From assembly GCA_017991595.1 (NCBI GenBank), contig JAGOQJ010000001.1:604410-668409 (forward strand): DNA of 64,000 nt. Reading direction: 5' to 3'. The translations under genes were made by a program, and so were the position numbers. Source of the stretch: Candidatus Didemnitutus sp. GTDB taxonomy: Bacteria; Verrucomicrobiota; Verrucomicrobiia; Opitutales; Opitutaceae. The notes beneath the pieces are model-generated. The model worked only from the letters and a program-made list of their open reading frames with translations, had not been told where the DNA came from and searched no databases. Shown one piece after another: positions 9,847 through 57,225 of the stretch (position 1 is its first letter; each line of letters begins with the position of its first letter).

Positions 9847-10002
9847 GGGCCTTACCCTGACCAACCGCGGGGCCGAAAACAAGGCGCGGTCCTACTTAGC
9901 GGCGCACCTATAACCGCGGCGCGTTATGACGACAGAGAAACTACACGGCGCAGGCACGAGGCCCGGTAGGATCAGGCTCGGCGAATCGGCCCGAGTGGGG
10001 CG

Positions 10003-34414: not shown

Positions 34415-34818
34415 TGGGGCGTGGAGCCTCGCAATCGCCGGGCGGATTGCGATGCAATTACCGGAGACCTGCGGGCGGCATCAGCGGCAGGGACCACGAA
34501 CGAAAGACACGGCGCGCCCGGACAGTCCATGCGGCCCCGCGGATCGCGGATCGTGCGATTTTCGCGCAGGGCCGGGTGGCGATCGCGCCCGCGAATTACT
34601 TTCGGTCAAGCGGCTGCATGTCTTCGTGGGGGCCGCGCCTTTGGGCCGGCTGTCTCCATGCTGATAGGGTGCAAAGCTGCGCTCCGAACTTTAGGCGGGT
34701 GATGCGGTGGGCGATGCAGGAGAACCGAGGGAGCTTGTCTGGTGTTGCGCTTCTGCGCCGAGACCCATCTGTGTTCAGCCATGTCAATCCGTGGCATCCG
34801 TGAATCTCAAACGCAGCC

Positions 34819-35993: not shown

Positions 35994-36060
35994 GCCGCGC
36001 CGCCAGCGCTACCTTTGCCCGGCCGCCTCACGTCGAGGCGGTCTTTTTGTGTGCGGGTGC

Positions 36061-36537
36061 CTACTGTTGTTCGGCCAAGAGGCGGTGCAAACGGCGGGCG
36101 AACAGCGCAGCCGCGGTCGCGATGCCGCCGACAATCAAGGCAACGAGCGCGCTCATGAAAATCCCCGCCGGGCGGTCTTCTCCGTCGCCGCCTGCGACGA
36201 TGAAGACGACCCCGCCGGCCACGAAGCCAAGGACGATCAGCGCGCAGCGTTGGATGCTGCGCAGCGCTGCCACGGTCGCGCTTGAGAAGGAGCCACTACG
36301 CCGCACCTCGCCGAATAGCGTGAAGGCTCGTTGCAGCGCCACGAAGAAAGGGATCGAGCCGATATACACATAGGCTAGGAACGGGTCGTGGAAATAAATC
36401 GCGAAGGTCGTGGCGTGGGCGTTTCGCCCTTCCAGATGCGGTTCCCATAGCAGCAGGCCTAGCGTTGCAAGGCCCAGCAGCACGACGACAATCTGCGCGA
36501 GCAGGGCGGAGCCGCTTTTCATGCCGGGTGTTTTCAT
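36061..36537 (-). CDS. DUF2975 family membrane protein
   Basis: Four TM helices with the characteristic topology. Confidence 0.5.
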   Translation of the reverse strand: MKTPGMKSGSALLAQIVVVLLGLATLGLLLWEPHLEGRNAHATTFAIYFHDPFLAYVYIGSIPFFVALQRAFTLFGEVRRSGSFSSATVAALRSIQRCALIVLGFVAGGVVFIVAGGDGEDRPAGIFMSALVALIVGGIATAAALFARRLHRLLAEQQ

Positions 36538-36623
36538 GACGCTGAGCCTAGCCCGATTGAATGAAACGCGGATGAAGCGCCGATGCGTTCTGCGTGAAAA
36601 CCTTGCGACCGCTTCTCTGTAAT

Positions 36624-36646
36624 GGGGTCAGGCCGCTTTTCGCTGC
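36624..36646. repeat. REP element (GGGGTCAGGCCGCTTTTCGCTGC), left copy flanking the RAYT gene
   Basis: The 23-mer recurs in inverted orientation at 37611-37633 and again at 38794-38816, 39049-39071, 39172-39194. Confidence 0.8.
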
Positions 36647-37566
36647 TATTGAGCTGATTCCCGCTGGCAGAGGTAGCTACGGACGCTTGAGGCGGCGCCG
36701 AGTTGCAGGCGCTCGGCCAGCCAGACGACAGGGGCGCCGCTTTGTGCGCGCACCTTGGCCGCGAGGGTGAGTTTCCAAGGCTGTTTCATCGGCTTGGTGG
36801 CGAGATCAGCCTCCGTGCGCTTCATCTCGACCAGCTGTTCGGTCAGAGCGGCTTCCCAGCGGCTCTCCCGCAGTTCGCGCACGTTGGCCCGCTCCATCCC
36901 TGCGGTGAGCGTGAGTCGACCGAACTCCCGGGCGAGCGCTTGCCGCCAGCCAGTCGTGCCGATGGCCCAGCCACGGGAAAGATCCTTCAAGCCACGTGCC
37001 TCCCAGCCGGCCTCGTCGCCGCCGGCCGTGATCAGGTGACGCTCGTAGGCGAGACGCCCGGCGAGGTCTGCCGTAAAACGCCCGCCCGCCTGCCAACCCG
37101 CGTCATCGATCCAACTCGGGCCCTTGAGCAGGTCGGGCAAGCTGGTCCAGCGGTAGTGGCGCACCTGCTCCGGCGGCACGATCTTGGCGCGGACCGGGTT
37201 GAGGTGGATGTAGTCGACGACCCGACCGAGGGACGCCGCATCCTCGATGAGGACGGATTGATAGCGGCCTTGGAACAGGTGCCCGCGCTCCTGCCGGAAG
37301 CGGTTGAAGCGCGTGGCCCACGTGGTCTGCAACCAGTGCATGCCCTCGACGAGATTCGGCTCCGGAGTCTCGAGCGCGAGGTGGTAATGGTTGCGCATGA
37401 GAGCGTAGGCGTGGACGCGCCAGCCCATGAGGGACTGGACTTCGCGGAGCGCTGCTAGAAACGCCTGCGCCTCGGCCGGCGAGAGGAAGAGATCGCGCCG
37501 GTAATTGCCGCGGTTGATGACGTGGTAGATCGCCCCTGGGAATTGGATCCGGAGCTTGCGAGCCAT
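36646..37566 (-). CDS. REP-associated tyrosine transposase (RAYT; IS200/IS605-like Y1 HUH transposase)
   Basis: IYHVINRGN block and HUH motif HYHLAL; flanked by inverted REPs. Confidence 0.8.
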   Translation of the reverse strand: MARKLRIQFPGAIYHVINRGNYRRDLFLSPAEAQAFLAALREVQSLMGWRVHAYALMRNHYHLALETPEPNLVEGMHWLQTTWATRFNRFRQERGHLFQGRYQSVLIEDAASLGRVVDYIHLNPVRAKIVPPEQVRHYRWTSLPDLLKGPSWIDDAGWQAGGRFTADLAGRLAYERHLITAGGDEAGWEARGLKDLSRGWAIGTTGWRQALAREFGRLTLTAGMERANVRELRESRWEAALTEQLVEMKRTEADLATKPMKQPWKLTLAAKVRAQSGAPVVWLAERLQLGAASSVRSYLCQRESAQ

Positions 37567-37610
37567 GGGGCGGAGGGTGCGGGCGAATCAGTCAGGGATC
37601 GAGGTCAAAA

Positions 37611-37633
37611 GCAGCGAAAAGCGGCCTGACCCC
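37611..37633. repeat. REP element, right copy (inverted)
   Basis: Reverse complement of the 36624-36646 23-mer. Confidence 0.8.
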
Positions 37634-37664
37634 GTCGGATTGGCCCCATCGGTTTGCCCCGTGG

Positions 37665-38567
37665 TTAGGGCTTCAGCGCAAGCGTGCGGGTAGGCGTGTT
37701 GCCGTGCCCGAGAACCTCGATGCGGTCTGGGTATAGTTCGAGAATCGCATACGACGCGATGTCCGCAGTTTCCACGAGACCGCTCACGGTCAGGTAATGG
37801 ACGCCGCCGACTTCCTCGTAACCGCCCCGGTGGTTGTGCCCGTTGATATAGGCTTTGACGCAGGGGTGCTGGGCAAGAAACGAGACGATCTCCTCCGTGT
37901 TGATCGCGATGTGCGGACCGAGCGGACGGGCCGGCGTGTGGGCGAAGATTACGACCCTTTTCCCTTCGGTCTCGCTGCGCTCAAGCAGGCTTGTCAGCCA
38001 GGCGAACTGGGCCTTGTCGATGCCTCCGTTCCAGCTCTTGGCATAGCTTGCTTTCGCATCTATGGCCGCCTTCATCGCAGCCGCTGCTTCGCTTTTGAGT
38101 GGCTCTTGTTTGGGTTTGAAATAGGCGCCGAGCGTGTTGCTGTCCGCGGCGACGAAACGCCAGTTCCCTCGATCAAAGGAATAGTAGGAAGGCGATTTCA
38201 GTCCGAGCGCCTTTCGGATCTTTTCGACGTTTTCTTCGGTGTCGGCAAAGTCGTGGTTGCCCATGACATGATACTTTTTCAGCGGAAAGCGCTCGAGTTC
38301 TTTGAGAGGCGCCTGGACATTCCGGTAACCTCCGTCGACCAGATCTCCGAGATGGATCAGGAAATCTAGCGGCTCCCTCTGTGTCTCTATGCGGATCTGC
38401 TCGAGTTTTTTGATGCTGTTTCTGTAAAAGCGGGTGCCGTGCGCGTCCTTGTCCGCGTATTGGATATCCGCGATAGCCAGAATGCGAACGTCGGGGGCCG
38501 CGTGTAGCGTTAGGCTGGCGAGAAGGACGGATAGCAACGCCATGATCCTGAGGGGGCCGTTTGTCAT
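37665..38567 (-). CDS. Secreted metallophosphoesterase (calcineurin-like phosphoesterase)
   Basis: Signal peptide MALLSVLLASLTLHA; metallophosphatase motifs GDLVDGG, GNHD and GHNH; GC noticeably lower than surroundings. Confidence 0.7.
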   Translation of the reverse strand: MTNGPLRIMALLSVLLASLTLHAAPDVRILAIADIQYADKDAHGTRFYRNSIKKLEQIRIETQREPLDFLIHLGDLVDGGYRNVQAPLKELERFPLKKYHVMGNHDFADTEENVEKIRKALGLKSPSYYSFDRGNWRFVAADSNTLGAYFKPKQEPLKSEAAAAMKAAIDAKASYAKSWNGGIDKAQFAWLTSLLERSETEGKRVVIFAHTPARPLGPHIAINTEEIVSFLAQHPCVKAYINGHNHRGGYEEVGGVHYLTVSGLVETADIASYAILELYPDRIEVLGHGNTPTRTLALKP

Positions 38568-38793
38568 GGATAATATGAGGGTAGCTTTAAAGGAGCCTCC
38601 CCCGTCTCCCCTATGCAAATCAAGGTAGGGTCAATTGTTGACTGTCGCTTCTTTCGGTGGGCATGACGAACGCGGACTTCTGCGTCCGGCCTCATCCGGC
38701 CGGTGTCTGAAAAGTATGTTTTTCGACGAGCGAGCGCTCGCTGTTTATAGGGATGAAATTAACTCAGGACCACCCATTGACCGTCCACAGTAT

Positions 38794-39206
38794 GGGGTCA
38801 GGCCGCTTTTCGCTTTTAGCGAGCTGGCTCTCCCTGGCAGAGGTAGGCGTGGATACGCCAGTCCATGAGGGACTGGGTTTCGCGGGCTGCCGCGAGAAAC
38901 GCCTACGCCTCGGCCGGGGAGAGGAAGAGATCGCGCCGGTAATTACCGCGGTTGATGACGTGGTAGATCGCCCCTGGGAATTGGATCCGGAGCTTGCGAG
39001 CCATGCGGCGGAGGGTGCGGGCGAATCAGTCAGGGATCGAGGTCAAAAGCAGCGAAAAGCGGCCTGACCCCGTCGGATTGGCCGTGGTAGATCGCCCCTG
39101 GGAATTGGATCCGGAGCTTGCGAGCCATGGGGCGGAGGGTGCGGGCGAATCAGTCAGGGATCGAGGTCAAAAGCAGCGAAAAGCGGCCTGACCCCGTCGG
39201 ATTGGC
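38794..39206. mobile_element. Internally deleted RAYT/REP derivative (MITE-like) with tandem duplication of its 123-bp terminal unit
   Basis: 38794-38850 matches the RAYT 3' end/REP (36624-36680); 38850-39083 matches the RAYT 5' end (37405-37645, including the ATG and about 55 N-terminal codons); the unit GTGGTAGATCGCCCCTGGG...GATTGGC is then repeated at 39084-39206. Confidence 0.75.
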
Positions 39207-39519
39207 GTGCAGCTAGCAGCAGGCCGAGGAACGCGCTGAACGTGCGGGTGACCGGACGAGAGCGCGATACCACCGCCAGGCAAACGGTGAGCGCGAGCGT
39301 GCCGAAGGCGCTGACGACCAGACCGAGCGCGGAGAAGATCAGGAAGGAGGCGAGGGCGTTCCCGCCCGGCATGTTCAGCGCGAACAGCGCACTCGCGACC
39401 AACGGCACCGGCAACGGCGAAAGCAGAAGCGCTTTCCAGGAGAAGCCGAAACGCGGCGGCGAGTCAGGCATTGCGGCGAGGAGTGTGCAGGGCCGGAATC
39501 GGCTCACAAGCGCGGTCAC
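39154..39519 (-). pseudogene. Truncated membrane-protein ORF whose last 17 codons come from the repeat unit
   Basis: Three predicted TM helices; the reading frame runs into the tandem repeat (..AARQSDGVRPLFAAFDLDP*), consistent with disruption or fusion by the repeat insertion. Confidence 0.3.
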
Positions 39520-39684
39520 GGCGCCGTTTTGTAGCGCGATCAGCCGGCGCGCGGGATTCTCGCGCGCGTTTGCGGCACGGTTCTCGAGGAAAGACTGCGG
39601 GTCGGAGAGTGGGGCCGTTGCGCGTTGCCTTGCAGCGGCGTCCGGTGGCGAGACAGTAGGCCTCAGCGTCCGCAGAAAATTGCC

Positions 39685-39987
39685 TCAAGAATCCGGCCAT
39701 TGTGCCGACGCACGAACGATACCCTCGATGCAAGCCTGGCTCCGCCTTCTTCCAATACTGTTGGCTTTTCCGCTCACGGTCTGTGCGCAACTGACCGTCA
39801 TCCAGACGATGCGGTTCGACGACTCGGGTGCTCCCTGGGCGACCTCCGGCGGGATCGTCGTGGCGTCGAGCGACGGTGAGCCGACGTTGCAAGATGCCGT
39901 GCTTGCCCCGATCGCGGGCAATGTGTTTTCGGCGCACTTCACTCCGAAACCGAGAGCGAGGACAACAAGGCGGATCAATTTCATCAC
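39685..39987 (-). CDS. Small secreted hypothetical protein (ambiguous; a signal-peptide ORF also exists on the + strand from 39728)
   Basis: MMKLIRLVVLALGFGVKCA signal peptide; lower-GC patch; the opposite-strand ORF MQAWLRLLPILLAFPLTVCAQ... also looks plausible, so strand is unresolved. Confidence 0.25.
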   Translation of the reverse strand: MMKLIRLVVLALGFGVKCAENTLPAIGASTASCNVGSPSLDATTIPPEVAQGAPESSNRIVWMTVSCAQTVSGKANSIGRRRSQACIEGIVRASAQWPDS

Positions 39988-40159
39988 GAAAAAGGGCCAA
40001 GGCGATGAATTCGCCGTTGGCCCAGTGAAACGAGATGCAAACTACCGCCCGCTGGCAAGCATGCGCTGGTGCCGCGTGCCCTCTCTGTCAGGAATCACGA
40101 CCCCACATCCTCGGGTCCGGCCTGCGGTGTTCGGCTCGGCTCGATTGATCACGTGGCAA

Positions 40160-40210
40160 ATAAGCGAGCGTCGAAACAGCGAACAACGGCCTGGCCCCGT
40201 CGGCTCAGAC
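40160..40210. repeat. Degenerate REP/terminal-unit remnant
   Basis: AGCGtcGAAAcAGCGaaCAaCGGCCTGgCCCCGTCGG resembles AGCAGCGAAAAGCGGCCTGACCCCGTCGG; lies immediately 3' of the methyltransferase gene. Confidence 0.45.
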
Positions 40211-40216
40211 GCCGGA

Positions 40217-41434
40217 TCATTTCTGAAAAATCACGATGCGATTGCTGTTGGTGCCCTTCGAGTTGTTGTCCACGCCCCAGCAATTCGCAGTCTTCGTGAA
40301 TTCCTGGGAGTTGATCAAAATCGACACGGGGATAAGCCCCGCGGCGCGTCCGGCGGCGAGCACTTGCTCCTCCAAGCGCACTGTGCCGCTGCGAACCTCT
40401 CCGACTTCGAACGCGACAAATCCACCCGGGCACACCACGCGGTGCAGTTCACGGAGCACGCTCCGCATGGCCGCAGTCCATTCGGGCAGCTTGCGGAGTT
40501 GCCAGATCGGCACGCGCTCCAAATCGATGCCGCAAAACCACGCGCGGAGCCAGTTGTCCTGGGCGTAGTCCACGGTATCGAGGAAAGGTGGGGAGGTGAC
40601 CGCGAGTGCGACCGAACTATCGTCGAGCTGTGGTGTAGTTTCGCAGGTTTGGGTCAACAGGATGGGAGCGGTCGTAAGCTGAGGCCGCGCTGGGTCGGCT
40701 AGAAGTTGTTTCGTTTTCTTGAGAATCAGTGCGGGCACGTCGCGGCAGGCCGGGGCCTGTTTCCGCTTCTCATTGATGCGGCGTTGTGACTCGATCGACA
40801 CCGCTTGGTTGGGCGGGAGTGTGTAGACGGAAAAGAAGCCGGCGGAGTGGCCGGTCAGGCGGTTGGCAGCGACGAGGCGAATCCACGCGTCGACGGCATC
40901 CTCCGTTCCGGTGCGCCGGGCTTGCAGGAGATAGCGGCGTAGCGAGCATAGCTGCCGCAAGGTCTCGCGATGATAGAAAACGTCCAAGTCCTCGCGGAGT
41001 TCGCGCACCGCCGTGAAATCGATAATTTCCAACCGCCGCTGCACCTGTGCGAACGAAGGCGGAGCGAGTCGCGGCGCAGTGAAGACTTCGGAAAGCGGAT
41101 TGATGTCACAGCCGGCGACCTCACGGCCGAGCAATGCCGCTTCGACGAGAGTAGTGCCACGCCCCATGAACGGGTCGTAAACGAGATCGCCCGGTGCGGT
41201 GAGGCGCTCGATGAAGAAGCGGGGCAACTGAGGTTTGAAGCAGGCGCGGTAGGAGACCTCGTGGAGCGAGTGCGCGGCGCGTTGTTTGGAGGTCCAGAAT
41301 TCGTTGGTGAAGACGGGCACGCCGTCCAGTTCGCTGCAGCGGGTGCTCTCGCCGAAGTCAGAGAAGGAGGCCAGTTCCGACAAAAGCTCGCTGGTTGCAT
41401 CCTGCCGAACTGTTCTATGCGGAAGTGCGTTCAA
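40217..41434 (-). CDS. Type II DNA methyltransferase (amino-MTase; AdoMet motif DPFMGRGTT, catalytic motif SPPF; possibly N4-cytosine-specific)
   Basis: DLVYDPFMGRGTTLVEA (motif I) and TSPPF (motif IV); 405 aa; about 55% GC. Confidence 0.8.
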   Translation of the reverse strand: MNALPHRTVRQDATSELLSELASFSDFGESTRCSELDGVPVFTNEFWTSKQRAAHSLHEVSYRACFKPQLPRFFIERLTAPGDLVYDPFMGRGTTLVEAALLGREVAGCDINPLSEVFTAPRLAPPSFAQVQRRLEIIDFTAVRELREDLDVFYHRETLRQLCSLRRYLLQARRTGTEDAVDAWIRLVAANRLTGHSAGFFSVYTLPPNQAVSIESQRRINEKRKQAPACRDVPALILKKTKQLLADPARPQLTTAPILLTQTCETTPQLDDSSVALAVTSPPFLDTVDYAQDNWLRAWFCGIDLERVPIWQLRKLPEWTAAMRSVLRELHRVVCPGGFVAFEVGEVRSGTVRLEEQVLAAGRAAGLIPVSILINSQEFTKTANCWGVDNNSKGTNSNRIVIFQK

Positions 41435-42018
41435 GCAATTAGAGCGCTATGATGTTTGGCGGCGGCGAGGAGTTTGTGGCTCACGGATACTTCTAGGCGG
41501 ACATTTACGATGGAGTCTGGTTCTAGGAAATCCAAACGCAGCGCGCCGATCACTGCACAATCGTCTTTGAGCGAATAGAAGACTGTGCAGAGGAGATGGT
41601 GAATGGGTGGGTGGAAGTGGCGACGAAGCTTTTCCGAGGAGGAGGTTAGAACCCGCCTGTTGGAGTCACTGGGGTTCCAGTCACTAGTCGCTTTGATTTC
41701 CAATGCGATCCGGTGGCCATGCCGGACAAGCATGCGGTCTGGATATCCTGCGCCGACGCACTTCTCTAACTGGAATTCTTTCAGTCCCTTTGTGAGCTGA
41801 GGCATCACGAATTCCTCAACTTGGTTCCCGATCGACTGATTGGAGCTGCGGGCACGGAGATTGCAGATTGAGCCACCGATACGTTGGCCTCCCATCGCTG
41901 CACGAAGGTCCAATTCGATTTCCGTGATGAGATTTTTTGGCCAAGCCGCAATGAGAGGAACCGGCGTGTGGCCTTCACGCCGCTGCAATTCCTCGTAGTA
42001 TTCAGCGAAGGTAAACAT
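41431..42018 (-). CDS. Putative Type II restriction endonuclease (PD-(D/E)xK fold)
   Basis: GYPDRMLV...IALEIKAT fits PD...(E)xK; 4-bp overlap (ATGA) with the MTase; about 52% GC against a roughly 68% background. Confidence 0.55.
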   Translation of the reverse strand: MFTFAEYYEELQRREGHTPVPLIAAWPKNLITEIELDLRAAMGGQRIGGSICNLRARSSNQSIGNQVEEFVMPQLTKGLKEFQLEKCVGAGYPDRMLVRHGHRIALEIKATSDWNPSDSNRRVLTSSSEKLRRHFHPPIHHLLCTVFYSLKDDCAVIGALRLDFLEPDSIVNVRLEVSVSHKLLAAAKHHSALIA

Positions 42019-42108
42019 CTCGTGGAAACGTGAGGTCGGGGCTCAAGAACAAAGGCCGCGGCGACTTGCGTCACCGGCGGCCCGTGAGGAGATAACTAGA
42101 TTGTCAGT

Positions 42109-45100
42109 TTACTGGCAAGCCTCGCACGTCCCACCGTTGCGCATCGCTTCGATGCTGCAGGCGTTTTTCTCTGCGTCCGTGTAGACCTTCTTGGCGTCGC
42201 GGGTGGCGGTCTCGGCTTTGGTTTCGCCGGCGGCGCCGCGGACTTCCTTTTTCACGCTCACGGTCGCTTTCTCGATGTTCGAGGCGCCCAACGTGCGGAG
42301 GTAGTAGGTCGTTTTGAGGCCGGACTTCCAGGCGTGGCGATACATGTGGCTGAGCGTTTTCAGGTCCGGCGTCTTGAGCCAGAGGTTCACGCTCTGCGAC
42401 TGGTCGATCCACTTCTGGCGGCGGGCGGCGGCGTCGACCACCCACTTGTGGTCGATGTCGAACGCCGTGCGGTATTTCTCCTTCAGGTCGGCCGGGACGG
42501 CTTCGATGTCGGCGAGGTCGCCGTCGAAATACTTCAGCGCGTCGATCATCTCCTGGTTCCAGAGGCCGCGGGCCTTGAGGTCCTCGACGAGGAACGTGTT
42601 GATGACGACGAATTCACCCGAGAGGTTCGATTTGACGTAGAGGTTCTTGTAGTAGGGCTCGATGCAGGGCGACGTGTTCGTGATGTTCGAGATCGTGGCG
42701 GTGGGCGCGATGGCGAGGCAGTTGGAGTTGCGCATGCCTTGCTTCGCGATTTTGGCGCGGAGCGGTTCCCAGTTCATCTTGCCGCCGCGTGGGACGTCGA
42801 CTGGCACGCCGCGCTCCTGCTCGAGGAGATCGAGCGTGTCCTGCGGGAGGAGGCCGCGGTCCCACTTCGAGCCCTTGTAGCTGGAGTAGGTGCCGCGCTC
42901 GGCCGCGAGGTCGGAGGAGGCTTCGTAGGCGTAATAGGCGATGGCCTCCATGAACTCGTCGTTGAACTCGACGGCTTCGGGGGAGGCGAACGCGACGCCC
43001 TTCATGTAGAGCGCGTTGGCGAGACCCATGATGCCGAGGCCGACGGGGCGGTGGCGCATGTTGGAGGTCTTCGCGGCCTGCGTCGGGTAGAAGTTGATGT
43101 CGATGACGTTGTCGAGGGCGCGGAGGGCGATGCGGATGGTGTCGCGCAGCTTCTCGTGATCGAGCGAGCCGTCGGGCTTGAGGTGCGACTCGAGGATGAC
43201 GGAGCCGAGATTGCAGACGGCGGTCTCGTCGTTGGAGGTGTTGAGCGTGATCTCCGTGCAGAGATTGGACGAATGGATGACGCCGGCGTGGTCCTGCGGG
43301 GAGCGGAGGTTGCAGGGATCCTTGAATGTGATCCAGGGGTGGCCGGTCTCGAAGAGCATCGAGAGCATCTTTTTCCAGAGCTCGATGGCCTCGACCTTGT
43401 GGCCTTGGATCTTTCCTTCCTCGGCGAGCTTTTCGTAGTGCGTGTAGCGCTCTTCGAACTTGCGTCCGTAGGTCTCGTGGAGGTCGGCGACTTCGTTGGA
43501 GCGGAAAAGCGTCCAGTGCGAGCGCGACTCCATGCGCTTCATGAACAGGTCGGGAATCCAGTTCGCCGTGTTCATGTCGTGCGTGCGGCGGCGGTCGTCG
43601 CCGGTGTTACGACGGAGTTCGAGGAACTCGAAGATATCGTTGTGCCACGACTCGAGGTAGGCGCAGCCGGAGCCCTTGCGCTTGCCGCCCTGGTTGACGG
43701 CGACGAGCTGGTCGTTGTGGAGCTTGAGGAAAGGGATGACGCCCTGCGATTCGCCGTTGGTGCCGGCGATGTGCGCGCCGGTGCCGCGGACGGCGGTCCA
43801 GGAACCGCCGAGGCCGCCGGCCCACTTGGAGAGCTGGGCGTTTTCGGCAATGCCGCGATACATGATGCCTTCGAGGCTGTCGTCGACGTAGTAGAGGTAG
43901 CAGGACGAGAGCTGCGAGTGGAGCGTGCCGGAGTTGAAGAGCGTCGGCGTGGACGAGCAGAAGCGGCGGCTCTTGTAGAGCGTGTAGAGCTGCGTGGCCC
44001 AGCCTTCGCGGTCGGACTTCTCGTCGAGGAAGAGGCCCATGGAGACGCGGAGCCAGAAGAACTGCGGGGTCTCGAGGCGGCGCGAGCGCTTGCCGGTCTT
44101 GTCGATGATGAGGTAGCGATCGTAGAGCGTCTGGACGCCGAGGAAGTCGAGCTCGAGGTCGGCCGACGGATCGATGGCGGCGGCGAGGCGGGCGAGGTCG
44201 TATTCCTTGAGGCGCGGGGAGAGGCGCTTGATGGCGATGCCGCGCTCGATGTAGGCGGCGAAGGCGGATTGGTGGGCGCGCTTCAGCGCGGCGAGGCCGT
44301 CGCGGACGATGTCCCAGCCGAGGACTTCCTCGTAGATGTAGGTGAGCTGGATGCGGCCGGCGAACTTGGCGAAGTCGGCGTCCTTTTCGATGAGGGTCTT
44401 GGCGTTGAGGACGATCGTGTTGTTGAGGTCGCCCTGCGCGATGTTGTCGAAGGTGGAGCGGCGGAGCTCGGCCTCGATCTGGTCGGCGGTGAGGCAGAGG
44501 TTGAGGCCGATGGAGGCGAACTCGATGCGCTTCTTGAGGTCCTCGCCGTTCCAGAAATACGTGGTGCCGTCGGCGCGCTGGACGACGATCATGGAGTTCT
44601 GGCCTTGCGGGAGATTCGCCTCGGCGGTCGGCGCGGCGCCGTCGGCCGGGGTGGCGACGAGCTCGGTGGCGTGGCGCGCGGCGGACTCGTTGGCGCGGGC
44701 GGCGTGGCGGGCGGCGCGGTAGAGGATGTAGTCCTCGGCGACCTTGAAGTGGCCGGCTTTCATCAGCTCTTCCTGGACCATGTCCTGGACTTCCTCGATG
44801 TGGAGGAAGGCCTGCTGCACGGCGGCGGCGCGCTCGGTGACGGCGCGGGCGATCTGGGGCGCGGGGGCGGAGTCCTTCTTGAGCGAGAGGAATGCCTTGC
44901 GGATGGCGATTTCGATCTTGGCCTCGTTCCAGGGGACGACCTGGGAGTTGCGGCGGATGAGCTTCACGGCGACGGCGGGGTGCTCGCGCGCGCTGGAGAG
45001 CTTCTGGGCGCGCTTGTGGAGGAGCGACTTGGCGACGTCGTGGGCGTTGTTGTCGACGAGGGTTTTCTCGATGAGCACGTAAAGATCGTTGAGGGACACG

Positions 45101-45426
45101 CGGAGCGGGCCGCGCGTGAGGGCTTGCTTGGTGAGGTTGGAGGCGACTTCGCGGGTGACGTCGGCGACGAAGCGCTGGTTCTTCTCGTTGAAGATGTCCT
45201 TCTCGCCCTTCGCGAGCATGAGGTTGGCGAGGGACTTGCCGACGGTGTCGGCGACCTCGGCGAGGTCGAAGCGCTCGGCGCCGTGCGGGCAGAGGACCTC
45301 GACTTCGGGGACGGTGACGTCCTCGCGGAGGACGTCGCGCCAGTTGTAGTTGGGCTTCTGATCCTGCGGGGTGCCGGTGAACTTCTTGAGGACGAGGTCG
45401 GTGTGGACGGAAGAGGTATCGCTCAT
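42109..45426 (-). CDS. nrdA: Ribonucleoside-diphosphate reductase alpha subunit, class Ia, long form with multiple N-terminal ATP-cone domains
   Basis: Catalytic blocks SSCYLYYVDDSLEG, NLCTEI, CNLGS, and thiyl-radical/C-terminal CxxC tail; two or three ATP-cone-like repeats in the first roughly 300 aa; 1105 aa. Confidence 0.9.
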   Translation of the reverse strand: MSDTSSVHTDLVLKKFTGTPQDQKPNYNWRDVLREDVTVPEVEVLCPHGAERFDLAEVADTVGKSLANLMLAKGEKDIFNEKNQRFVADVTREVASNLTKQALTRGPLRVSLNDLYVLIEKTLVDNNAHDVAKSLLHKRAQKLSSAREHPAVAVKLIRRNSQVVPWNEAKIEIAIRKAFLSLKKDSAPAPQIARAVTERAAAVQQAFLHIEEVQDMVQEELMKAGHFKVAEDYILYRAARHAARANESAARHATELVATPADGAAPTAEANLPQGQNSMIVVQRADGTTYFWNGEDLKKRIEFASIGLNLCLTADQIEAELRRSTFDNIAQGDLNNTIVLNAKTLIEKDADFAKFAGRIQLTYIYEEVLGWDIVRDGLAALKRAHQSAFAAYIERGIAIKRLSPRLKEYDLARLAAAIDPSADLELDFLGVQTLYDRYLIIDKTGKRSRRLETPQFFWLRVSMGLFLDEKSDREGWATQLYTLYKSRRFCSSTPTLFNSGTLHSQLSSCYLYYVDDSLEGIMYRGIAENAQLSKWAGGLGGSWTAVRGTGAHIAGTNGESQGVIPFLKLHNDQLVAVNQGGKRKGSGCAYLESWHNDIFEFLELRRNTGDDRRRTHDMNTANWIPDLFMKRMESRSHWTLFRSNEVADLHETYGRKFEERYTHYEKLAEEGKIQGHKVEAIELWKKMLSMLFETGHPWITFKDPCNLRSPQDHAGVIHSSNLCTEITLNTSNDETAVCNLGSVILESHLKPDGSLDHEKLRDTIRIALRALDNVIDINFYPTQAAKTSNMRHRPVGLGIMGLANALYMKGVAFASPEAVEFNDEFMEAIAYYAYEASSDLAAERGTYSSYKGSKWDRGLLPQDTLDLLEQERGVPVDVPRGGKMNWEPLRAKIAKQGMRNSNCLAIAPTATISNITNTSPCIEPYYKNLYVKSNLSGEFVVINTFLVEDLKARGLWNQEMIDALKYFDGDLADIEAVPADLKEKYRTAFDIDHKWVVDAAARRQKWIDQSQSVNLWLKTPDLKTLSHMYRHAWKSGLKTTYYLRTLGASNIEKATVSVKKEVRGAAGETKAETATRDAKKVYTDAEKNACSIEAMRNGGTCEACQ

Positions 45427-45549
45427 GGAGGGAAAGGTGGGAGACGGCGGGAGGTGGCGGACGGGCGGGGTAGGAGAGTGGGGCGCGAAAAGAAGGCGGA
45501 AACCCTGGTGGGCGACTCCGCCTTCGCTTTGCGAGCTAGGGCGGGCGGG

Positions 45550-46636
45550 TCAGAGCTCGTCGTCGCTGGTGTTCTGGAGGGCGGACGATTTTTGATACTC
45601 GGTGACGCGACCTTCGAAGAAGTTCTGTTCCTTCTTGATGTCCATCATCTCGGCGAGCCAAGGGAGCGGATTCTTCACGCCCGGATTGAGCGGGGCGAGG
45701 CCGCAGCCTTCGAGCCGGCGGTCGGCGATGTAATCGATGTAGGTGAGGAACTCGTCGATCGCGAGGCCGACGGCGTTCACGGGGAGGCAGTCGCGGATGA
45801 ACTCCTTCTCGAGGGCGATGGCCTCGCGCATGGTGGCGCGGAGCTCCTCCTTGAACTCGGGGGTCCAGATCTCGCGGTTCTCCTCGATGAGATCCATGAA
45901 CAGATTCCGGAAGAGCTCGATGTGGTTGGACTCGTCGCGGAGGGTGTAGCGGAACATCTGGCCGATGCCGGGGAACTTGTTCTGCCGGTAGAGCGACAGG
46001 ATCATGCCGAAGAGGCCGTAGAACTGGGTGCCCTCCATGCACTGGCCGAAGATGAAGATGTTGCGGGCGAGGAGCTGCTTGTTGGCGACGGTGGTGAGGT
46101 CGAGGTCGCGGCGGAGGGCGTTGGAGGCCTTGTTGACGAACTCGTTCTTCTTCTCGATCGACTTGATGTCCTCGAACATCGCCTCGCACTCGTGCGGGTT
46201 GATGCCGAGGGAGGAGATCATGTAGAGGAGCGAGTCGGCGTGGATGTTCTCCTCGTGAGCGTGGCGGCCGAGGACGAGCTTGAGCTCGGGAGCGGTGACG
46301 AGCTCGCGGACGACATGCTGGATGTTGTCGCCCACGATGCCTTCGGCGGCGGAGAAGTAGCCGATGCCCATGCGGATGATCCAACGCTCGATGTCGGACA
46401 CGGTCTTCGGGTCGCGCCACTGCTCGATGTCCTTGCCCATCGGGATGTCCTCGGGCTCCCAGTGGTTGGCCTTCATCGTCTTGTAGAGATCGTAGGCCCA
46501 CTGGTATTTCAGGGGGAGGAGGTTGAAGTAGGGAACTTGGCGGCCGTTGATGACCTTCTTGCCGGCGAAAGCGGCTTCGGCCTTATCCTGATCGAGAACG
46601 AAAGTTTTGGAGCCGACCTGAAACGATTTGAGCATG
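45550..46636 (-). CDS. nrdB: Ribonucleoside-diphosphate reductase beta subunit (class Ia R2)
   Basis: Di-iron ligand blocks (EENIHADS, ESNHIELF), radical Tyr region, C-terminal DDEL tail; start at MLKSFQV (the track ORF is N-terminally over-extended). Confidence 0.9.
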
Positions 46637-47230
46637 GCTGTGGCGTGAATGAAGCGGACGTGTGTCGTGTGTGTTTGCCGACGGCAAAAGCATCCTCTCG
46701 TGGTCTGTGCGACGCGCAGAACGCCCGAGCGAACCGGAGTTGCTGGGGAATCCTCACGCGGAGCTGACCACCACAGGATGTGGCTGCCCGGAACCAAGGA
46801 CACTACTAATTGGGGTGGGGGCACCCCCGTCAATTTTTTCGCGCGGAAACTTCCGAACTTTTTTAGTGGACAAAAAAGATGATGAAACATGCCGGTTCGC
46901 CCAGCGCGAAATAGGCGGTGAAAGGCGACGTTTCAGAGGGAAACGGAGGGAAGGCGGCGGATGTGCGGCGGAGCCAAAAAACATCTTGACGATACCAGCG
47001 AACGAACCTGCGCGCGCCGCGGGAAAAATAAAATCGCCGCCGGGACGCGTGGACGCGCCGCGATCCACGGTGCGGACGGAGCGCACGAAGGGCGGACGGG
47101 CACGGCGCGCAGGCCGAGTGATGCGCGGTCAGCGCTCGTGCGGACGTGGGACAGGCGGGCGGCGAGTGCGAGTGCGGAGCGATGCGTGCGTGACACTTGG
47201 CGCCAGACGGAGGGTGTTTGAAGCAGGCAA

Positions 47231-47285: not shown

Positions 47286-50200
47286 TCAGAACTTGATGCG
47301 GATACCGGCTTGGATCTGCCACCGGGACACCGGAGTGTCATTCGCGGTGACTGGCACGCCATCTGGAGTGGTTACTTGATAAACATACTGGCCCGCTCCG
47401 CCGTTGGCAGCTGCGTCGTAGGTGGTGCCCACGACGGCACGACGATACGAGAAGGGCACTTCTTCCTGAATGCCCCAGCTGTCGTCGATCAGGTTCGCGA
47501 AGTTAATAACGTTCAGGAACAGTTCACTGCGGAGGCGCTTGTAGATTGGGAGTTCCTGGGTGATTTTGAGGTCCACGGTATTGACCCATGGGGAGGTCTC
47601 GGAGTTACGAGGAACAACCTGTCCCTTGTAGCGGTTCAAGGTGTTCGAATTCACGAACGCCCAAAATTGGTCGCGCGCTGCATCAGATGCATAACGGACT
47701 TTCGGGTCGTTGATGTCGGTCGGCACATAAAGCAGGTCATTGAAGGTGAAACCGTCGCCGTTTGCATCACCGCGGAACACCCACGAATAGGGACGGCCCG
47801 TGCGGCCTTCATAGATGGCCGAAATGGTCGTCGGGGCACGTTTGATGAACTCAAAGCGGCGGGTCAGCACCAGAACAACCTTATTCTTGATGTTATAGTT
47901 CGAGGTGGCGGCGACGTCCTCGTTCGGATTGAACACCGCTCGGCCGTTGTAGTTGGACTGCGCGACGGACGATGTCATGGGCGTGACGTCCTCGTAATCG
48001 CTATGGGTGAGGGCCAAGCTCGCGAACCAGTTGTTTTTCCAGGGCTTGGTGACTTTGAGCGTCAAGTCAAAGCCGCCGCCTTTCTTGCTGTTCGTCAGAT
48101 AGTAGACGTCGGAAAATTCTTGATTCATGTAAAACGTCGCCGCGGTGTAGGGGTTGGAGGCCGAGGAGCCGCGCGATGCACTCGTGGAGTTGGTGATGAC
48201 GCCCGCATAGCGGTCACGACCATCGGGGTTTGTGCCCACCTTGCGGAGATTCAGATTCGTCACGAACGGCATCCGGTCGGTTTGGCTGTAGCCCGCTTCC
48301 AAAGTAGCGATCATCCCTCCGATAATCTGGTGATCGATGGCCAGATTGCCCTTCCAGGTGAGCGGCTGTTTGAAGTCAGGATCGGTGACGTTGATCACTG
48401 GCAGCGCGCGCAGGTTGGCGGCCGTGGTTGGGCTGAATGGATCGTTGACCGCTACGGGCACGTAGGTGGTCGGGATTTGGTTCGGCGAAAAGGTCGCGTT
48501 CGCGACCGTCTGCCGCGCAAACGCGCCGCGATTAGAGTAGGCATTGGAAAGCCAGACGCCCGGGTTGCGGCCTTGAAAAAGGCCAATGCCACCGCGGATC
48601 TGGGTTTTAGTCGCAGTCGGCAGCTCGTAATTGAAGCTGAAGCGCGGTGCGATAGTATAGTTGCCATCGGGGAGCGTGGTGGAAGAGAGACCGGACTGGC
48701 CGGTCACCCAAGTCTTGGAACGGAAAGCTGCTTCGCTGTAGATGTTGGCGTTCGGGATGGCCGTGAGTTCATCAGGCATGACCAGTTGTTCAAAGCGCAG
48801 GCCTGCATTGAGTGTCAGGCGGTCGTTCACGCGCCAGCTGTCCTGCAGGAACACGCCGAGCATGCCGATGTCGAAATCTGCGGCAACGTCCGCCGGGTTC
48901 GCGCCAGGGGCCAGCAACGCACGGAGGAGGGAACCGGTGCCACTTTGCCAAGCGGCAACGTTCGTGAACGTGAATTGGCCCTGCCAAGCTTGGACGAAGG
49001 CATTAAAGATCTCGCGATTTTCCCAGTCGAATCCACCAACGATGGTGTGATTGCCAACCGAGTATTCGCCCGACGCGGTCGTGGTCAGAGTTTTCGTCGT
49101 GATGTTATTGTATTGGCGGGAAAATTCCGTGCCGAAACGAATCTGACCATTGGTCACGGCCGTATTGTTGTCGGCGCGGGTGCCGCTGATACCGTTAATG
49201 ATTACCTCCGGGAACGGGGAGGAATTCGGGCGCGGAGACCCGTCGTAGTCTGAGTAGGAGATGCTGAGGTCCGTGCGGAAATTTGGGGTCCAGTCGCTGT
49301 TCAGCTGCAGAACGTAATTTTCTGTCAGGCGCGGTTGGGCATACCAATAAGAGCTGAACGAAGTGGTCGTGGAGCCGCTAAAGCTGGCAAACACCGTGTC
49401 CGAGCCGTCAGTCTTGCGGTAGCTCAGTGCCAAGCGATGATTATCGGAGATGTTCCAGTCGAGCTTGGCGATGGACGTCTCTTGAAGGGTCTCGTTTTCC
49501 GCGACGTCGAATGAGCCAATGTCGTAGTTAAAAGTTTGGGCGCGGGTGCGGATGTCTGTGATTTGCTGACTATTGCCCGGGATGATCAGATTCTGATTTG
49601 GAGCAGTGGTGAGGCGGGAGAAATCATCATAGCTCAGGAAGAAAAAGAGCTTATTGGGAATGAGGGGACCGCCAAAAGTTGCGCCCCAAGTCTTTTCATC
49701 AAACGGGTCTTTGACCCCACTCACAGGGTTTTTCGCGCGGCGGTCTTCGTCGGTGAACTCGTAGTAGACCGAACCGCGGAAGTCGTTGGTGCCGGATTTC
49801 GTAACGGCGTTGATGAGCGCGCCGCTGAAGCCGGTGCGGCGAACGTCGTAAGGCGTCAGTTCGACACTGAGTGCCTGCAACGCCTCCGGCGGAATCGGGC
49901 TGCGCAGCGACGTGAATCCGTTGCTATTAAGGCCAAACGGATCGTTCGCTTGAACGCCGTCGATCAGGAAGGAGTTATAGCGAAAATTCTGACCTTGGGC
50001 GCTGAGCTGGCCACCTTGGTCGAGCGAGCCGAGAAAAACGCGGGAATCGAGGCGCGCGATATCCTGCACATTGCGGCGCACGGTGGCGACATTGCCGATT
50101 TCGTCTTCACCGAAATTTGAACCAGTGCTTACACGCCCGGAGCCGAAGGTTGTATCGCGGGAGGAGCGGACCGTGAATGTGTCGAGTTGCACCACGTCAC

Positions 50201-56793: not shown

Positions 56794-56847
56794 AGCGATT
56801 TGTGGGCACCACGAAAAACACGAAACACACGAACACGGGCCTCGATC

Positions 56848-57225
56848 ATGAGTGACATCATCTACCGCGAGGAGTCCTACAAAATCATGGGTGCGTGCTT
56901 TGCGGTGTATAAGGAGAAGGGGTGTGGCTTTCTCGAGGCGGTCTTTCAGGAGTGTCTCGAGTTTGAATTCGGTGATCAGAACATCCCGTTTGTCGCCCAT
57001 CCGTCGTTGCAGCTCTCCTACAAGGGCCGAATTTTGAAGCAGACGTATTCGCCTGACTTTATCTGCTACGAAAAGATTGTCGTCGAAATCAAAGCCATGG
57101 CCGCTTTGGCCAGCGAGCATCGCGCTCAAGTTCACAATTATCTTCGCGCGACCGGTCACCGTCTCGGTCTCTTGGTGAACTTCGGACATTTTCCCAAGGT
57201 CGAGTTCGAGCGCATCGCCCTCTGA
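56848..57225 (+). CDS. GxxExxY family protein (PD-(D/E)xK-fold)
   Basis: MSDIIYREESYKIMGACFAVYKEKGCGFLEAVFQECLEFEF...; conserved GxxExxY-family core; lower GC; sits between the ABC ATPase and permease genes. Confidence 0.7.
   Translation: MSDIIYREESYKIMGACFAVYKEKGCGFLEAVFQECLEFEFGDQNIPFVAHPSLQLSYKGRILKQTYSPDFICYEKIVVEIKAMAALASEHRAQVHNYLRATGHRLGLLVNFGHFPKVEFERIAL

What the first reader, a model, noticed from the sequence alone, without database searches (positions are those of the whole stretch)
36600..42110. REP-bounded low-GC accessory island: RAYT 'REPtron', its miniature derivative, a metallophosphoesterase and a Type II R-M system
Three copies of one REP/terminal sequence lie at about 36.62 kb, 38.8-39.2 kb and 40.16-40.21 kb. 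They delimit segments whose GC (about 52-58%) is well below the roughly 68% background: a secreted metallophosphoesterase (37665-38567) and an MTase/REase pair (40217-42018). The core nrdAB operon begins right after the island. This looks like a REP-anchored insertion hotspot that has repeatedly captured foreign cargo. RAYT elements are normally regarded as cargo-less, so REP-mediated acquisition of a defence locus deserves a closer look.
Basis: partly seen in the sequence, partly recalled or inferred. Interest (0 to 1): 0.75.

Follow-up and report, generated by a model that had tools for sequence, protein, structure and literature searches.

The report
Transposase relic beside nrdA defence hotspot
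A long-resident, inverted-repeat-flanked tyrosine-transposase gene and its miniature copies sit next to a spot at the end of the ribonucleotide reductase operon where related bacteria keep swapping defence genes, but the repeats look like neighbours of that traffic and not its vehicle.

Summary
The repeats and genes are real. A 306-aa Y1/HUH transposase gene (36646-37566, minus strand) is flanked by 39-nt inverted repeats. Next to it lie a 290-bp internal-deletion derivative, an extra right-end copy and one degenerate solo repeat. The metallophosphoesterase (MPE) and a Type II methyltransferase/endonuclease pair are also real, with lowered GC3 (0.71, 0.74 and 0.59, against 0.82 +/- 0.07).

The interpretation needs correcting.
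- The element fits the published TIRYT/"TIRtron" class (repeats starting GGGGWSAS) better than a canonical RAYT/REPtron.
- The island abuts the 3' end of nrdB-nrdA, not its start.
- In a close relative the TIRtron lies 23 nt after nrdA, so it is the ancestral neighbour.
- In other relatives the nrdA-to-TIRtron gap holds different low-GC cargo: OLD-like ATPase, STAND NTPases, BglII-type and other R-M systems, and a toxin-antitoxin pair.
- In two relatives the cargo is flanked by direct repeats of the nrdA 3' end, and no such repeat copy lies at the cargo in three relatives (L129, L128, L045).
- Cargo that enters at nrdA therefore ends up "repeat-bounded" automatically.

The MPE is a wandering single-gene cassette whose neighbours differ in every relative. 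REP-mediated capture is not supported, but it is not excluded for the MPE. This is a new member of known kinds, of modest interest.

The parts
36622..37645 (-). Full-length TIRtron: a TIRYT (Y1/HUH tyrosine transposase-like) gene with its two terminal inverted repeats
   Evidence: The inverted repeats 36624-36662 and 37595-37633 are 39 nt long and 87% complementary, with 23 nt exact. The same architecture is found in L035, L137, L133, L099 and L105.
36646..37566 (-). TIRYT gene, 306 aa, with HUH motif (NHYHL) and catalytic Tyr motif (DYIHLNPV), plus a ~150-aa all-helical C-terminal extension
   Evidence: Pfam Y1_Tnp E 2e-11. NCBIfam REP_Tyr_transpos 69.6 bits, below the cut-off of 80. The AF2 model has pLDDT 84.7 and its best PDB match is 4er8 TnpA-REP (E 7e-6, TM 0.76). 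There are more than 5800 homologues of about 306-315 aa. GC3 is 0.82, like native genes.
38792..39083 (-). Miniature, non-autonomous derivative of the TIRtron: a 728-bp internal deletion that keeps the left 55 nt and the right 241 nt, including the first ~50 codons of the transposase gene
   Evidence: Repeat families D1 and D3 and alignments A2 and A3. The deletion junction lies at a shared GTAG microhomology.
39084..39207 (-). Extra head-to-tail copy of the last ~124 nt of the element's right end
   Evidence: It is identical to the master copy over the ~120 nt that align, whereas the neighbouring mini copy has one mismatch. Similar tandem end arrays occur in L033 and L030.
40174..40203 (-). 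Degenerate solo terminal repeat, 14 nt from the methyltransferase stop codon. It carries the GTTGTT variant typical of relatives, not the CTTTT variant of the resident element
36016..36621 (-). Variable segment holding the DUF2975 membrane-protein gene (36061-36537). It is absent in the close relative L036, where the element's left end abuts the EF-hand gene flank
   Evidence: Pfam PF11188 and blastn of L036 against the window.
37657..38781 (-). MPE cassette: a metallophosphoesterase gene (37665-38567) with a signal-peptide-like N-terminus, plus about 214 nt upstream. It sits between the right end of the full element and the left end of the mini element
   Evidence: Pfam PF00149 and GC3 0.71. 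It is 96% identical over 37661-38682 to L038/L039/L041, where it lies between DUF5069 and RNase R with no repeats. It is 85% identical over 37657-38781 to L125, in yet another context.
39208..40173 (.). About 1 kb of lineage-specific DNA: a probable membrane-protein remnant (orf121, 39208-39519, minus strand, GC3 0.83, reading into the repeat), then 39520-40173 with weak coding signal
   Evidence: No homologue was found in any fetched locus. No transposase remnant was found.
40217..41434 (-). Type II DNA methyltransferase (motif I DPFMGRGTT, motif IV SPPF)
   Evidence: PADLOC MTase_II PDLC03325 E 4e-168 and Pfam N6_N4_Mtase. GC3 is 0.74. Homologues are listed.
41431..42018 (-). Candidate restriction endonuclease, 195 aa, with a PD-(D/E)XK-like motif (YPDRMLVRHGHRIALEIKAT). 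It overlaps the methyltransferase start by 4 nt
   Evidence: The same pairing occurs in L131 (84% aa) and L128 (74% aa). GC3 is 0.59. There are no Pfam, NCBIfam, PADLOC or PDB hits, and the AF2 single-sequence model was unusable.
42038..42108 (-). nrdA 3' untranslated region and terminator, which is the sharp proximal boundary of the hotspot
   Evidence: It is 92% identical in L044 and L129, and the sequence diverges completely directly after it.
42109..46890 (-). Core nrdB (45550-46890) and nrdA (42109-45426) operon
   Evidence: Pfam. The order TonB-receptor-like gene, nrdB, nrdA is conserved in many of the 80 relatives; nrdB-nrdA in nearly all.

Best explanation
The interval between the 3' end of nrdB-nrdA and the conserved EF-hand/CxxCxxCC genes is a chromosomal cargo hotspot in Opitutaceae. 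The source is a Candidatus Didemnitutus MAG. Its ancestral occupant is a vertically inherited TIRtron: a TIRYT gene (a RAYT-like Y1/HUH enzyme with a C-terminal helical extension) flanked by inverted repeats that begin GGGGTCAG.

Foreign, mostly defence-type genes enter directly after the nrdA terminator. The inferred route is recombination that uses the nrdA 3' end, either Campbell-type or homology-facilitated integration of DNA carrying an nrdA 3' fragment, and in some lineages tyrosine integrases. Incoming genes are thereby wedged between nrdA and the nearest terminal repeat. In this genome the current occupant next to nrdA is a Type II R-M pair.

The TIRtron has also made local partial copies of itself: a 290-bp deletion derivative, one extra right end and an old solo repeat. 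A wandering single-gene MPE cassette and a DUF2975 gene lie against its two ends.

Shown: the anatomy, the compositional bias, the variability among relatives, the empty-site state, and the nrdA-repeat signature in relatives.

Inferred: that the window's own R-M pair arrived by the same nrdA-end route, and that the repeats were passive.
For: - Empty site: in L137 the order is nrdB, nrdA, 23 nt, repeat, TIRYT, repeat.
- The TIRYT gene is syntenic in L036 (95% aa), L011 and L133. TIRYT hits in nrdA loci are always downstream of nrdA.
- The same boundary holds different cargo after the conserved terminator. The window has an R-M pair. L044 has a membrane protein plus an MBL-fold protein. L033 has a 468-aa protein. 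L117 has a 275-aa protein at GC 0.50. L049 and L058 have STAND NTPases. L057 has an OLD-like ATPase/TOPRIM protein. L102 has a BglII-type R-M. L133 has an antitoxin/ParE pair. L131 and L129 have the same methyltransferase family.
- Direct repeats of the nrdA 3' end flank the cargo in L129 (identical 126-nt ends plus a 343-nt nrdA fragment) and in L133 (about 300 nt, 83.5% alike). Nested nrdA end remnants occur in L044 and L129.
- Integrase genes sit next to the cargo in L128 and L045.
- The first 1.5 kb downstream is at least 5 GC points below nrdA in 15 of 60 relatives, while only 8 of 60 have the repeat motif or TIRYT there.
- TIRYT has native GC3 (0.82), whereas the cargo is low.
- The solo repeat at 40.2 kb carries the relatives' sequence variant, so it is not a recent copy of the resident element.
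- Literature match to TIRYT/TIRtron and to TnpA-Y1 subclass 2.1.
Against: - The window itself shows no duplicated nrdA fragment and no integrase next to its R-M pair. The entry route here is therefore inferred by analogy.
- All three accessory cassettes in the window lie within about 30 nt of a terminal repeat on at least one side.
- The DUF2975 indel relative to L036 ends exactly at the element's left end. The MPE sits between two same-orientation copies of the element. These patterns could also reflect an active role of the repeats or the enzyme.
- Only 64 kb of the source genome was available. Copy number, a second MPE copy and the state of the DUF5069/RNase R locus are therefore unknown.
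Confidence: 0.6

Rival explanations
1. Active capture. The TIRYT enzyme nicks or joins DNA at its terminal repeats, and this is what brings cargo in. The MPE, bracketed by a miniature and a full copy in the same orientation, would be a mobilisable composite.
For: - The MPE lies 15 nt from the extended right end and 13 nt from the mini element's left end, and its genomic context differs from that in close relatives.
- The DUF2975 indel ends exactly at the left end.
- Cargo abuts a repeat copy on its distal side in the window, L033, L117 and L049.
- In L133 two diverged TIRtrons bracket a Na/Ca exchanger gene.
Against: - The R-M pair has a repeat on one side only.
- R-M homologues move without these repeats (L128, L129).
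- No MPE homologue elsewhere has the repeats.
- The MPE-plus-repeat arrangement was seen only in this strain (L132).
- The L137 empty site explains the distal repeat boundary without any activity.
- The two L133 TIRtrons are only 70% alike and have different repeats, so they are not a recent composite.
- No cleavage chemistry is known for TIRYTs.
Confidence: 0.1
2. Passive anchor. The conserved terminal repeat serves only as a short second homology arm. Cargo lying between nrdA and a repeat in a donor replaces the recipient's cargo by double crossover after DNA uptake.
For: - The repeat core (A)AAGGGGTCAGGCCGTTGTTCGCTGC is conserved across several Opitutaceae species.
- The solo repeat beside the methyltransferase has the variant found in other species, not that of the resident element.
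- L131 carries the same R-M family in the same slot. Its R-M is only 76% identical at the nucleotide level, while its nrdA is 92% identical.
Against: - An arm of 23-35 nt is very short for RecA-dependent exchange.
- L129 and L133 show single-crossover (duplication) signatures at nrdA and not clean replacements.
- Many cargo-bearing relatives lack the repeat.
Confidence: 0.17
3. No special locus. This is ordinary compositional variance plus REP-like repeats that simply accumulate in intergenic DNA.
For: - GC3 of the MPE and the methyltransferase is only 1-1.5 sd below the mean, and other low-GC genes occur in the window.
- A PQQ-propeller gene indel between L036 and the window has no repeat nearby.
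Against: Among the 80 nrdA-bearing relatives, content after nrdA changes among close relatives at one sharply defined boundary. The genes found there are recognisable defence genes.
Confidence: 0.03

Closest known systems
TIRtron / TIRYT (Di Nocera et al. 2013, PMC3733652), equated with TnpA-Y1 subclass 2.1 (Quentin et al. 2018, PMC6006769)
   Same: - A RAYT-like Y1/HUH protein that is long for its class (~300 aa) because of a C-terminal extension.
- The gene is flanked by terminal inverted repeats whose start fits GGGGWSAS (here GGGGTCAG).
- The repeats form moderately abundant families arranged as singles, dimers and clusters.
   Different: - The C-terminal domain gives no Pfam hit to Bac_DnaA_C, HTH_23 or HTH_28.
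- The window shows a deletion derivative that still carries the 5' end of the transposase gene, which directly links the master copy to a miniature element.
- Copy number in the source genome is unknown, and no copies lie outside this locus in 64 kb.
REPtron: a RAYT (TnpA-REP) gene flanked by REP/BIME (Nunvar 2010; Ton-Hoang 2012; Corneloup 2021, PMC8266576)
   Same: - A single resident Y1 transposase-like gene bracketed by inverted copies of a short repeat that also occurs elsewhere.
- The best structural match is E. coli TnpA-REP, 4er8.
- It is vertically inherited at a fixed locus.
- Local clustering of repeat copies near the gene has been reported for the Marinomonas REPtrons.
   Different: - There is no GTAG-tagged palindrome, and the ends are weak or non-hairpins.
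- The protein is twice as long.
- It scores below NCBIfam's equivalog cut-off.
REPINs and bacterial MITEs
   Same: Non-autonomous inverted-repeat doublets of 130-290 bp, presumably mobilised in trans. Related MAGs carry many of them.
   Different: The window's copy is a recent internal deletion of the master element that retains coding sequence. It is not a spacer-separated REP doublet.
Core-gene-flanked defence-island or integration hotspots (own knowledge: Makarova 2011; Oliveira/Rocha 2017; E. coli and Pseudomonas hotspot surveys)
   Same: - Conserved flanks with highly variable, low-GC, defence-rich content among relatives.
- A sharp boundary after a core gene's terminator.
   Different: - The anchor is the nrdA 3' end in Opitutaceae.
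- Cargo units are very small (1-3 genes).
- In two relatives they are flanked by diverged copies of the nrdA 3' end and not by a tRNA or att site with an integrase.
IS200/IS605 insertion sequences
   Same: The Y1/HUH catalytic fold.
   Different: - Those TnpA proteins are about 130-150 aa.
- Their ends are subterminal hairpins without inverted repeats.
- NCBIfam transpos_IS200 scores only 16.9 bits against a cut-off of 55.

Membership tests
TIRYT / TIRtron | Y1/HUH tyrosine transposase-like protein with an HUH motif and a catalytic Tyr | tested here: met
   NHYHL and DYIHLNPV motifs. Pfam Y1_Tnp. The AF2 model matches 4er8 and the IS608 TnpA fold. H60, H62 and Y119 are invariant in 42 homologues.
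TIRYT / TIRtron | Gene flanked by terminal inverted repeats that share the GGGGWSAS motif | tested here: met
   The 39-nt repeats both start GGGGTCAG. The same is seen around homologues in L035, L137, L133, L099 and L105.
TIRYT / TIRtron (subclass 2.1) | C-terminal extension with HTH similarity (Bac_DnaA_C, HTH_23 or HTH_28) | tested here: inconclusive
   A ~150-aa extension is present and is predicted to be all-helical, ending in three short helices. There is no Pfam hit even at E <= 1.
RAYT / REPtron | Protein reaches the curated RAYT model threshold | tested here: not met
   NCBIfam NF047646 scores 69.6 bits against a cut-off of 80. PDB phmmer against 4er8 gives only E 0.09.
RAYT / REPtron | Flanking repeats are GTAG-tagged palindromes (REPs) able to form hairpins | tested here: not met
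   There is no 5' GTAG head. The right end folds at -5.6 kcal/mol (z -2.1), while the left end, the solo copy and the L137 end are not better than shuffles.
RAYT / REPtron | Repeats are dispersed genome-wide in high copy number | tested here: inconclusive
   No copies lie outside 36.6-40.2 kb in this 64-kb window. There is 1 exact copy in the Didemnitutus species representative, but at least 25 in the MAG CAYWTK01 and at least 14 in JBMTAG01. The rest of the source genome was not available.
Type II restriction-modification system | DNA methyltransferase with AdoMet-binding and catalytic motifs | tested here: met
   PADLOC MTase_II at E 4e-168 over the full length. Motifs DPFMGRGTT and SPPF are present.
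Type II restriction-modification system | Adjacent cognate endonuclease | tested here: inconclusive
   A 195-aa ORF overlaps the methyltransferase by 4 nt, has a PD...EIK motif and is conserved as a pair in L131 and L128. There are no family or structure hits and the AF2 model failed.
Composite transposon (repeat-bounded cargo unit) | Cargo bracketed by two element copies and found as the same unit at more than one locus or genome | tested here: not met
   The MPE is bracketed by the mini and full copies only in this strain (L132 is the same arrangement). All other MPE contexts lack the repeats. The R-M pair has a repeat on one side only.
Chromosomal integration / defence hotspot | Conserved flanking core genes with different accessory content in related genomes | tested here: met
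Integrase-borne genomic islet | Integrase gene and att repeats bounding the cargo in this window | tested here: not met
   There is no integrase among the ORFs of 35.7-42.1 kb. There is no tRNA gene in the window. No nrdA-end duplicate lies distal to the R-M pair. Such features are present only in relatives (L045, L128, L129, L133).

The most novel reading that the evidence does not exclude
The TIRYT enzyme and its terminal repeats are not bystanders. By nicking the repeat next to nrdA and at its own ends, the enzyme would create the recombinogenic site that makes this a hotspot. The mini-copy/MPE/full-copy arrangement would then be a cargo-carrying Y1 element, that is, the first gene capture by a RAYT-type system.
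Probability: 0.08. Interest if true: 0.7.

Novelty: new member of a known kind. Interest (0 to 1): 0.3.

Why it matters
- It corrects a tempting over-reading. Repeat copies at the edges of foreign genes need not mean that the repeats captured them. Here the repeat-flanked gene is the old neighbour of nrdA, and newcomers are inserted between the two.
- It documents a small, sharply bounded defence-gene hotspot at the nrdA 3' end across Opitutaceae, with a recurring signature: cargo flanked by diverged copies of the nrdA 3' end.
- TIRYT/TIRtron elements have been described in only two works (three records in the searched library). This locus provides a clean example with a master copy, a fresh deletion derivative and a long-term syntenic position. 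It is useful material for anyone testing what these enzymes do.

Tried and rejected
- The exact-sequence look-up of the transposase found nothing. The source was identified only through the homologue list, as a Ca. Didemnitutus MAG with a 940-kb contig.
- Rfam and tRNA scans of the window were empty, so there is no tRNA-type att site.
- The promoter/terminator scan added nothing beyond a terminator after the EF-hand gene.
- A 23-mer search with up to 4 mismatches in the 80 nrdA loci found nothing. Only the 11-12-nt core is shared at that distance.
- Endonuclease candidate: Pfam, NCBIfam, PADLOC and PDB all gave nothing, and the single-sequence AF2 model was unusable at pLDDT 35.
- Pfam on the TIRYT C-terminal half found no HTH hit.
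- I searched for a duplicated nrdA 3' fragment distal to the window's R-M pair and found none.
- I searched 39.1-40.25 kb for a decayed transposase gene and found none beyond the known right-end copy.
- Sliding identity along nrdA against seven relatives showed no clear mosaic breakpoint.
- I tested whether the gene downstream of the MPE in L125 is DUF2975-like, meaning the element might have split an MPE-DUF2975 pair. It is not.
- A viral-contig scan for the repeat gave no hits.
- I considered an IS200/IS605 insertion sequence and rejected it on protein length, end structure and model score.

Full report
**What is there**

The window has 65.5% GC and comes from an Opitutaceae genome. The transposase and the methyltransferase are 100% identical to proteins of a Candidatus Didemnitutus MAG with a 940-kb contig.

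There are 5 copies within 3 mismatches, against none in 100 shuffles. A sixth, degenerate copy lies at 40174-40203 (40176-40198). No copy occurs anywhere else in the 64 kb.

Two copies in inverted orientation (36624-36662 and 37595-37633; 39 nt, 87% complementary) bracket a 306-aa ORF on the minus strand (36646-37566). This ORF matches Pfam Y1_Tnp (E 2e-11) and carries the HUH (NHYHL) and tyrosine (DYIHLNPV) motifs.

A 290-bp element at 38792-39083 consists of the left 55 nt joined to the right 241 nt of the full element (85% and 94% identity). The 728-bp internal deletion is joined at a shared GTAG. It is followed head-to-tail by one more copy of the last ~124 nt, which is identical to the master copy over the ~120 nt that align.

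**The other genes**

- 37665-38567(-) is a calcineurin-like metallophosphoesterase (MPE) with a signal-peptide-like N-terminus.
- 40217-41434(-) is a Type II DNA methyltransferase (PADLOC MTase_II, E 4e-168).
- 41431-42018(-) is a 195-aa ORF that overlaps the methyltransferase by 4 nt. It has a PD...EIK motif but no family or structure hit. AF2 on the single sequence failed. Its pairing with this methyltransferase family recurs in L131 (84% aa) and L128 (74% aa). I therefore accept it as the probable endonuclease.
- nrdA is 42109-45426(-) and nrdB is 45550-46890(-). The island thus touches the 3' end and terminator of the operon, not its start.

**Composition**

Across 53 ORF-based gene calls, GC3 is 0.82 +/- 0.07.

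| Gene | GC3 |
|---|---|
| Transposase | 0.82 (native) |
| MPE | 0.71 |
| Methyltransferase | 0.74 |
| Endonuclease candidate | 0.59 |

Only the endonuclease candidate is a strong outlier, and three other genes in the window are equally low. The GC argument is real but moderate, and the background is 65.5%, not 68%.

**What kind of element it is**

The protein scores below NCBIfam's RAYT equivalog cut-off (69.6 against 80) and far below the IS200 cut-off. It belongs to a family of more than 5800 proteins of about 306-315 aa, which JGI often names RayT.

An AF2 model built from 42 homologues (pLDDT 84.7) matches E. coli TnpA-REP (4er8) best, followed by the IS608 and ISDra2 transposases. It has an extra ~150-aa all-helical C-terminal half.

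The flanking repeats are poor hairpins. The right end folds at -5.6 kcal/mol (z -2.1), and the other ends are no better than shuffles. They lack a GTAG head.

The literature describes exactly this. TIRYTs are RAYT-like genes flanked by terminal inverted repeats that share GGGGWSAS, forming "TIRtrons". They have been equated with TnpA-Y1 subclass 2.1, which has a C-terminal HTH-type extension. Here the repeat starts GGGGTCAG. The predicted HTH could not be confirmed by Pfam.

A scan of one genome per species found the repeat in several Opitutaceae MAGs. It occurs as inverted doublets 130-280 nt apart, as tandem clusters and around TIRYT genes. The consensus is aAaGGGGTCAGGCCGTTGTTCGCTGC. More distant Verrucomicrobiota keep only the core GGGGTCAGGCCG.

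**Comparison with relatives: the transposase is an old resident**

- In L036 (95% aa) the element abuts the EF-hand gene flank. The window's 36016-36621, which holds DUF2975, is missing there.
- In L011 the element sits at the same syntenic position.
- In L133 it lies between nrdA and the CxxCxxCC gene.
- In L137 the order is nrdB, nrdA, 23 nt, repeat, TIRYT, repeat. This is the empty state of the locus.
- In six further nrdA loci, TIRYT hits lie downstream of nrdA and never upstream.

**Comparison with relatives: the gap is a hotspot**

None of 80 nrdA loci carries the MPE, DUF2975 or this R-M pair downstream of nrdA. The nrdA terminator (window 42038-42123) is 92% identical in L044 and L129, and the sequence diverges completely right after it.

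| Locus | Content after nrdA |
|---|---|
| L044 | Membrane protein plus MBL-fold protein |
| L033 | 468-aa low-GC protein |
| L117 | 275-aa gene at GC 0.50 |
| L049, L058 | STAND NTPases |
| L057 | OLD-like ATPase/TOPRIM protein |
| L102 | BglII-type R-M |
| L045 | Integrase fragment plus low-GC genes |
| L133 | Antitoxin/ParE plus IS21 |

The window's methyltransferase family sits in the same slot in L131 and L129, with a different endonuclease in L129.

In 15 of 60 loci the first 1.5 kb after nrdA is at least 5 GC points lower than nrdA. Only 8 of 60 have the repeat motif or TIRYT there.

**How cargo gets in**

- In L129 the R-M unit is followed by a 343-nt nrdA 3' fragment and nested copies of the last nrdA codons. 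The contig has identical 126-nt ends made of the nrdA end plus terminator.
- In L133 the toxin-antitoxin pair is flanked by two ~300-nt copies of the nrdA 3' end that are only 83.5% alike, so one copy came from elsewhere.
- L044 also shows a nested remnant of the nrdA terminus.

These are the signatures expected when DNA carrying an nrdA 3' fragment integrates by recombination at nrdA. In L128 the R-M homologues sit beside a tyrosine integrase. No repeat copy lies at the cargo in L129, L128 or L045. In L133 the nearest copy belongs to TIRtron #1, beyond an IS21.

The TIRtron is the ancestral next-door neighbour of nrdA, so any cargo inserted at nrdA is automatically bounded by a terminal repeat on its far side. 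This explains the pattern in the window, L033, L117 and L049 without any repeat-mediated capture.

The solo repeat next to the methyltransferase carries the GTTGTT variant of relatives and not the CTTTT variant of the resident element. It is therefore an old or imported copy.

**The MPE**

The segment 37661-38682 is 96% identical to contigs from several samples (L038-L043). There the gene lies between DUF5069 and RNase R, with no repeats. These include the two samples that also yield the 95% TIRYT relative (L036, L037).

A more distant copy (L125, 88% aa) shares a longer stretch (37657-38781) in a third context. Homologues at 60% and 53% identity sit in two further contexts. Homology always ends within a few nucleotides of the stop codon.

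The MPE is therefore a wandering single-gene cassette. Which lineage moved it cannot be decided from these data. In the window it lies 15 nt from the extended right end of the full element and 13 nt from the left end of the mini element. L132 confirms this arrangement at 100% identity. This is the one observation that keeps an active role of the element alive.

**Verdict**

The hotspot idea is supported, but the anchor is the nrdA 3' end. The repeats belong to a resident TIRtron, which is most simply a neighbour of the hotspot.

I put the main reading at about 0.6. A passive homology-arm role for the repeat gets about 0.17, active capture about 0.1, and "nothing special" about 0.03.

The element is a new member of the TIRYT/TIRtron kind, and the hotspot is a new example of a core-gene-flanked defence hotspot. 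Interest is 0.3.

Noticed in passing
L129 1-2787 (JGI 3300072636); L130: A 2.8-kb contig holds a 119-aa gene, a 161-aa endonuclease candidate, the methyltransferase (81% aa) and a 343-nt nrdA 3' fragment. Its two ends are an identical 126 nt. It is either a 2.64-kb circular R-M element or an insertion flanked by direct repeats that the assembler collapsed.
   Followed up: partly
L133 3491-3775 and 4444-4750: Two diverged (83.5%) copies of the last ~230 nt of nrdA plus its terminator flank an antitoxin/ParE pair. One copy must be foreign.
   Followed up: partly
L044 4290-4400; L129 2530-2720: Nested remnants of the last nrdA codons (GCTTGCCAGTAA after a new in-frame ...GCCTGCCAATAA end) suggest serial insertions into the very end of nrdA, each of which restored the reading frame.
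   Followed up: partly
L133 6900-7905 and 9935-10946: Two TIRtrons lie 2 kb apart in the same orientation. They are only 70% alike, and each has its own repeat variant (GTTGCATGTTGCA against GTTGTTCGCTG). They bracket a Na/Ca exchanger gene and a 149-aa ORF. An IS21 ends right at the first one's repeat.
   Followed up: partly
window 38838-38850 and 39076-39090: The deletion junction of the mini element lies at a GTAG, and the junction of the extra right-end copy lies just before GTGGTAG. GTAG is the tetranucleotide that canonical RAYTs recognise. This may be a coincidence.
   Followed up: no
L038 about 9855-9883: In the relative's MPE locus, the 8-mer CTGACCCC (the reverse complement of the repeat start GGGGTCAG) lies 12 nt outside the cassette breakpoint. 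It is too short to call a repeat remnant.
   Followed up: no
window 40217-42018 compared with L131 692-2490: The same R-M family in the same slot is only 76% identical at the nucleotide level, while the adjoining nrdA 3' end is 92% identical. This points to either fast R-M evolution or allelic replacement.
   Followed up: no
window 47286-50549: A 1087-aa TonB-dependent-receptor-like outer-membrane protein has low GC (0.57, GC3 0.70). It is nevertheless a conserved neighbour of nrdB in many relatives, so low GC here does not mean the gene is foreign.
   Followed up: yes
window 56800-57225 and 2502-3131: Two other low-GC genes: a PD-(D/E)XK nuclease family protein (PDDEXK_3; GC 0.53) and an ECF sigma factor (GC 0.53).
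   Followed up: partly
L036 2294-3995 compared with window 34415-34707: A PQQ beta-propeller gene is present in the relative and absent from the window, with no repeat copy nearby. Gene gain and loss therefore also occur in this neighbourhood without the repeats.
   Followed up: partly
L033 300-1320: In the relative MAG, an IS66-family transposase C-terminal fragment is interrupted and flanked by REPIN-like doublets. Three right-end copies lie in tandem 42-60 nt apart.
   Followed up: no
window 39520-40173: About 650 nt between orf121 and the solo repeat have no convincing coding frame (GC3 at most 0.7 in all frames) and no homologue in any fetched locus. This is probably decayed older cargo.
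   Followed up: partly
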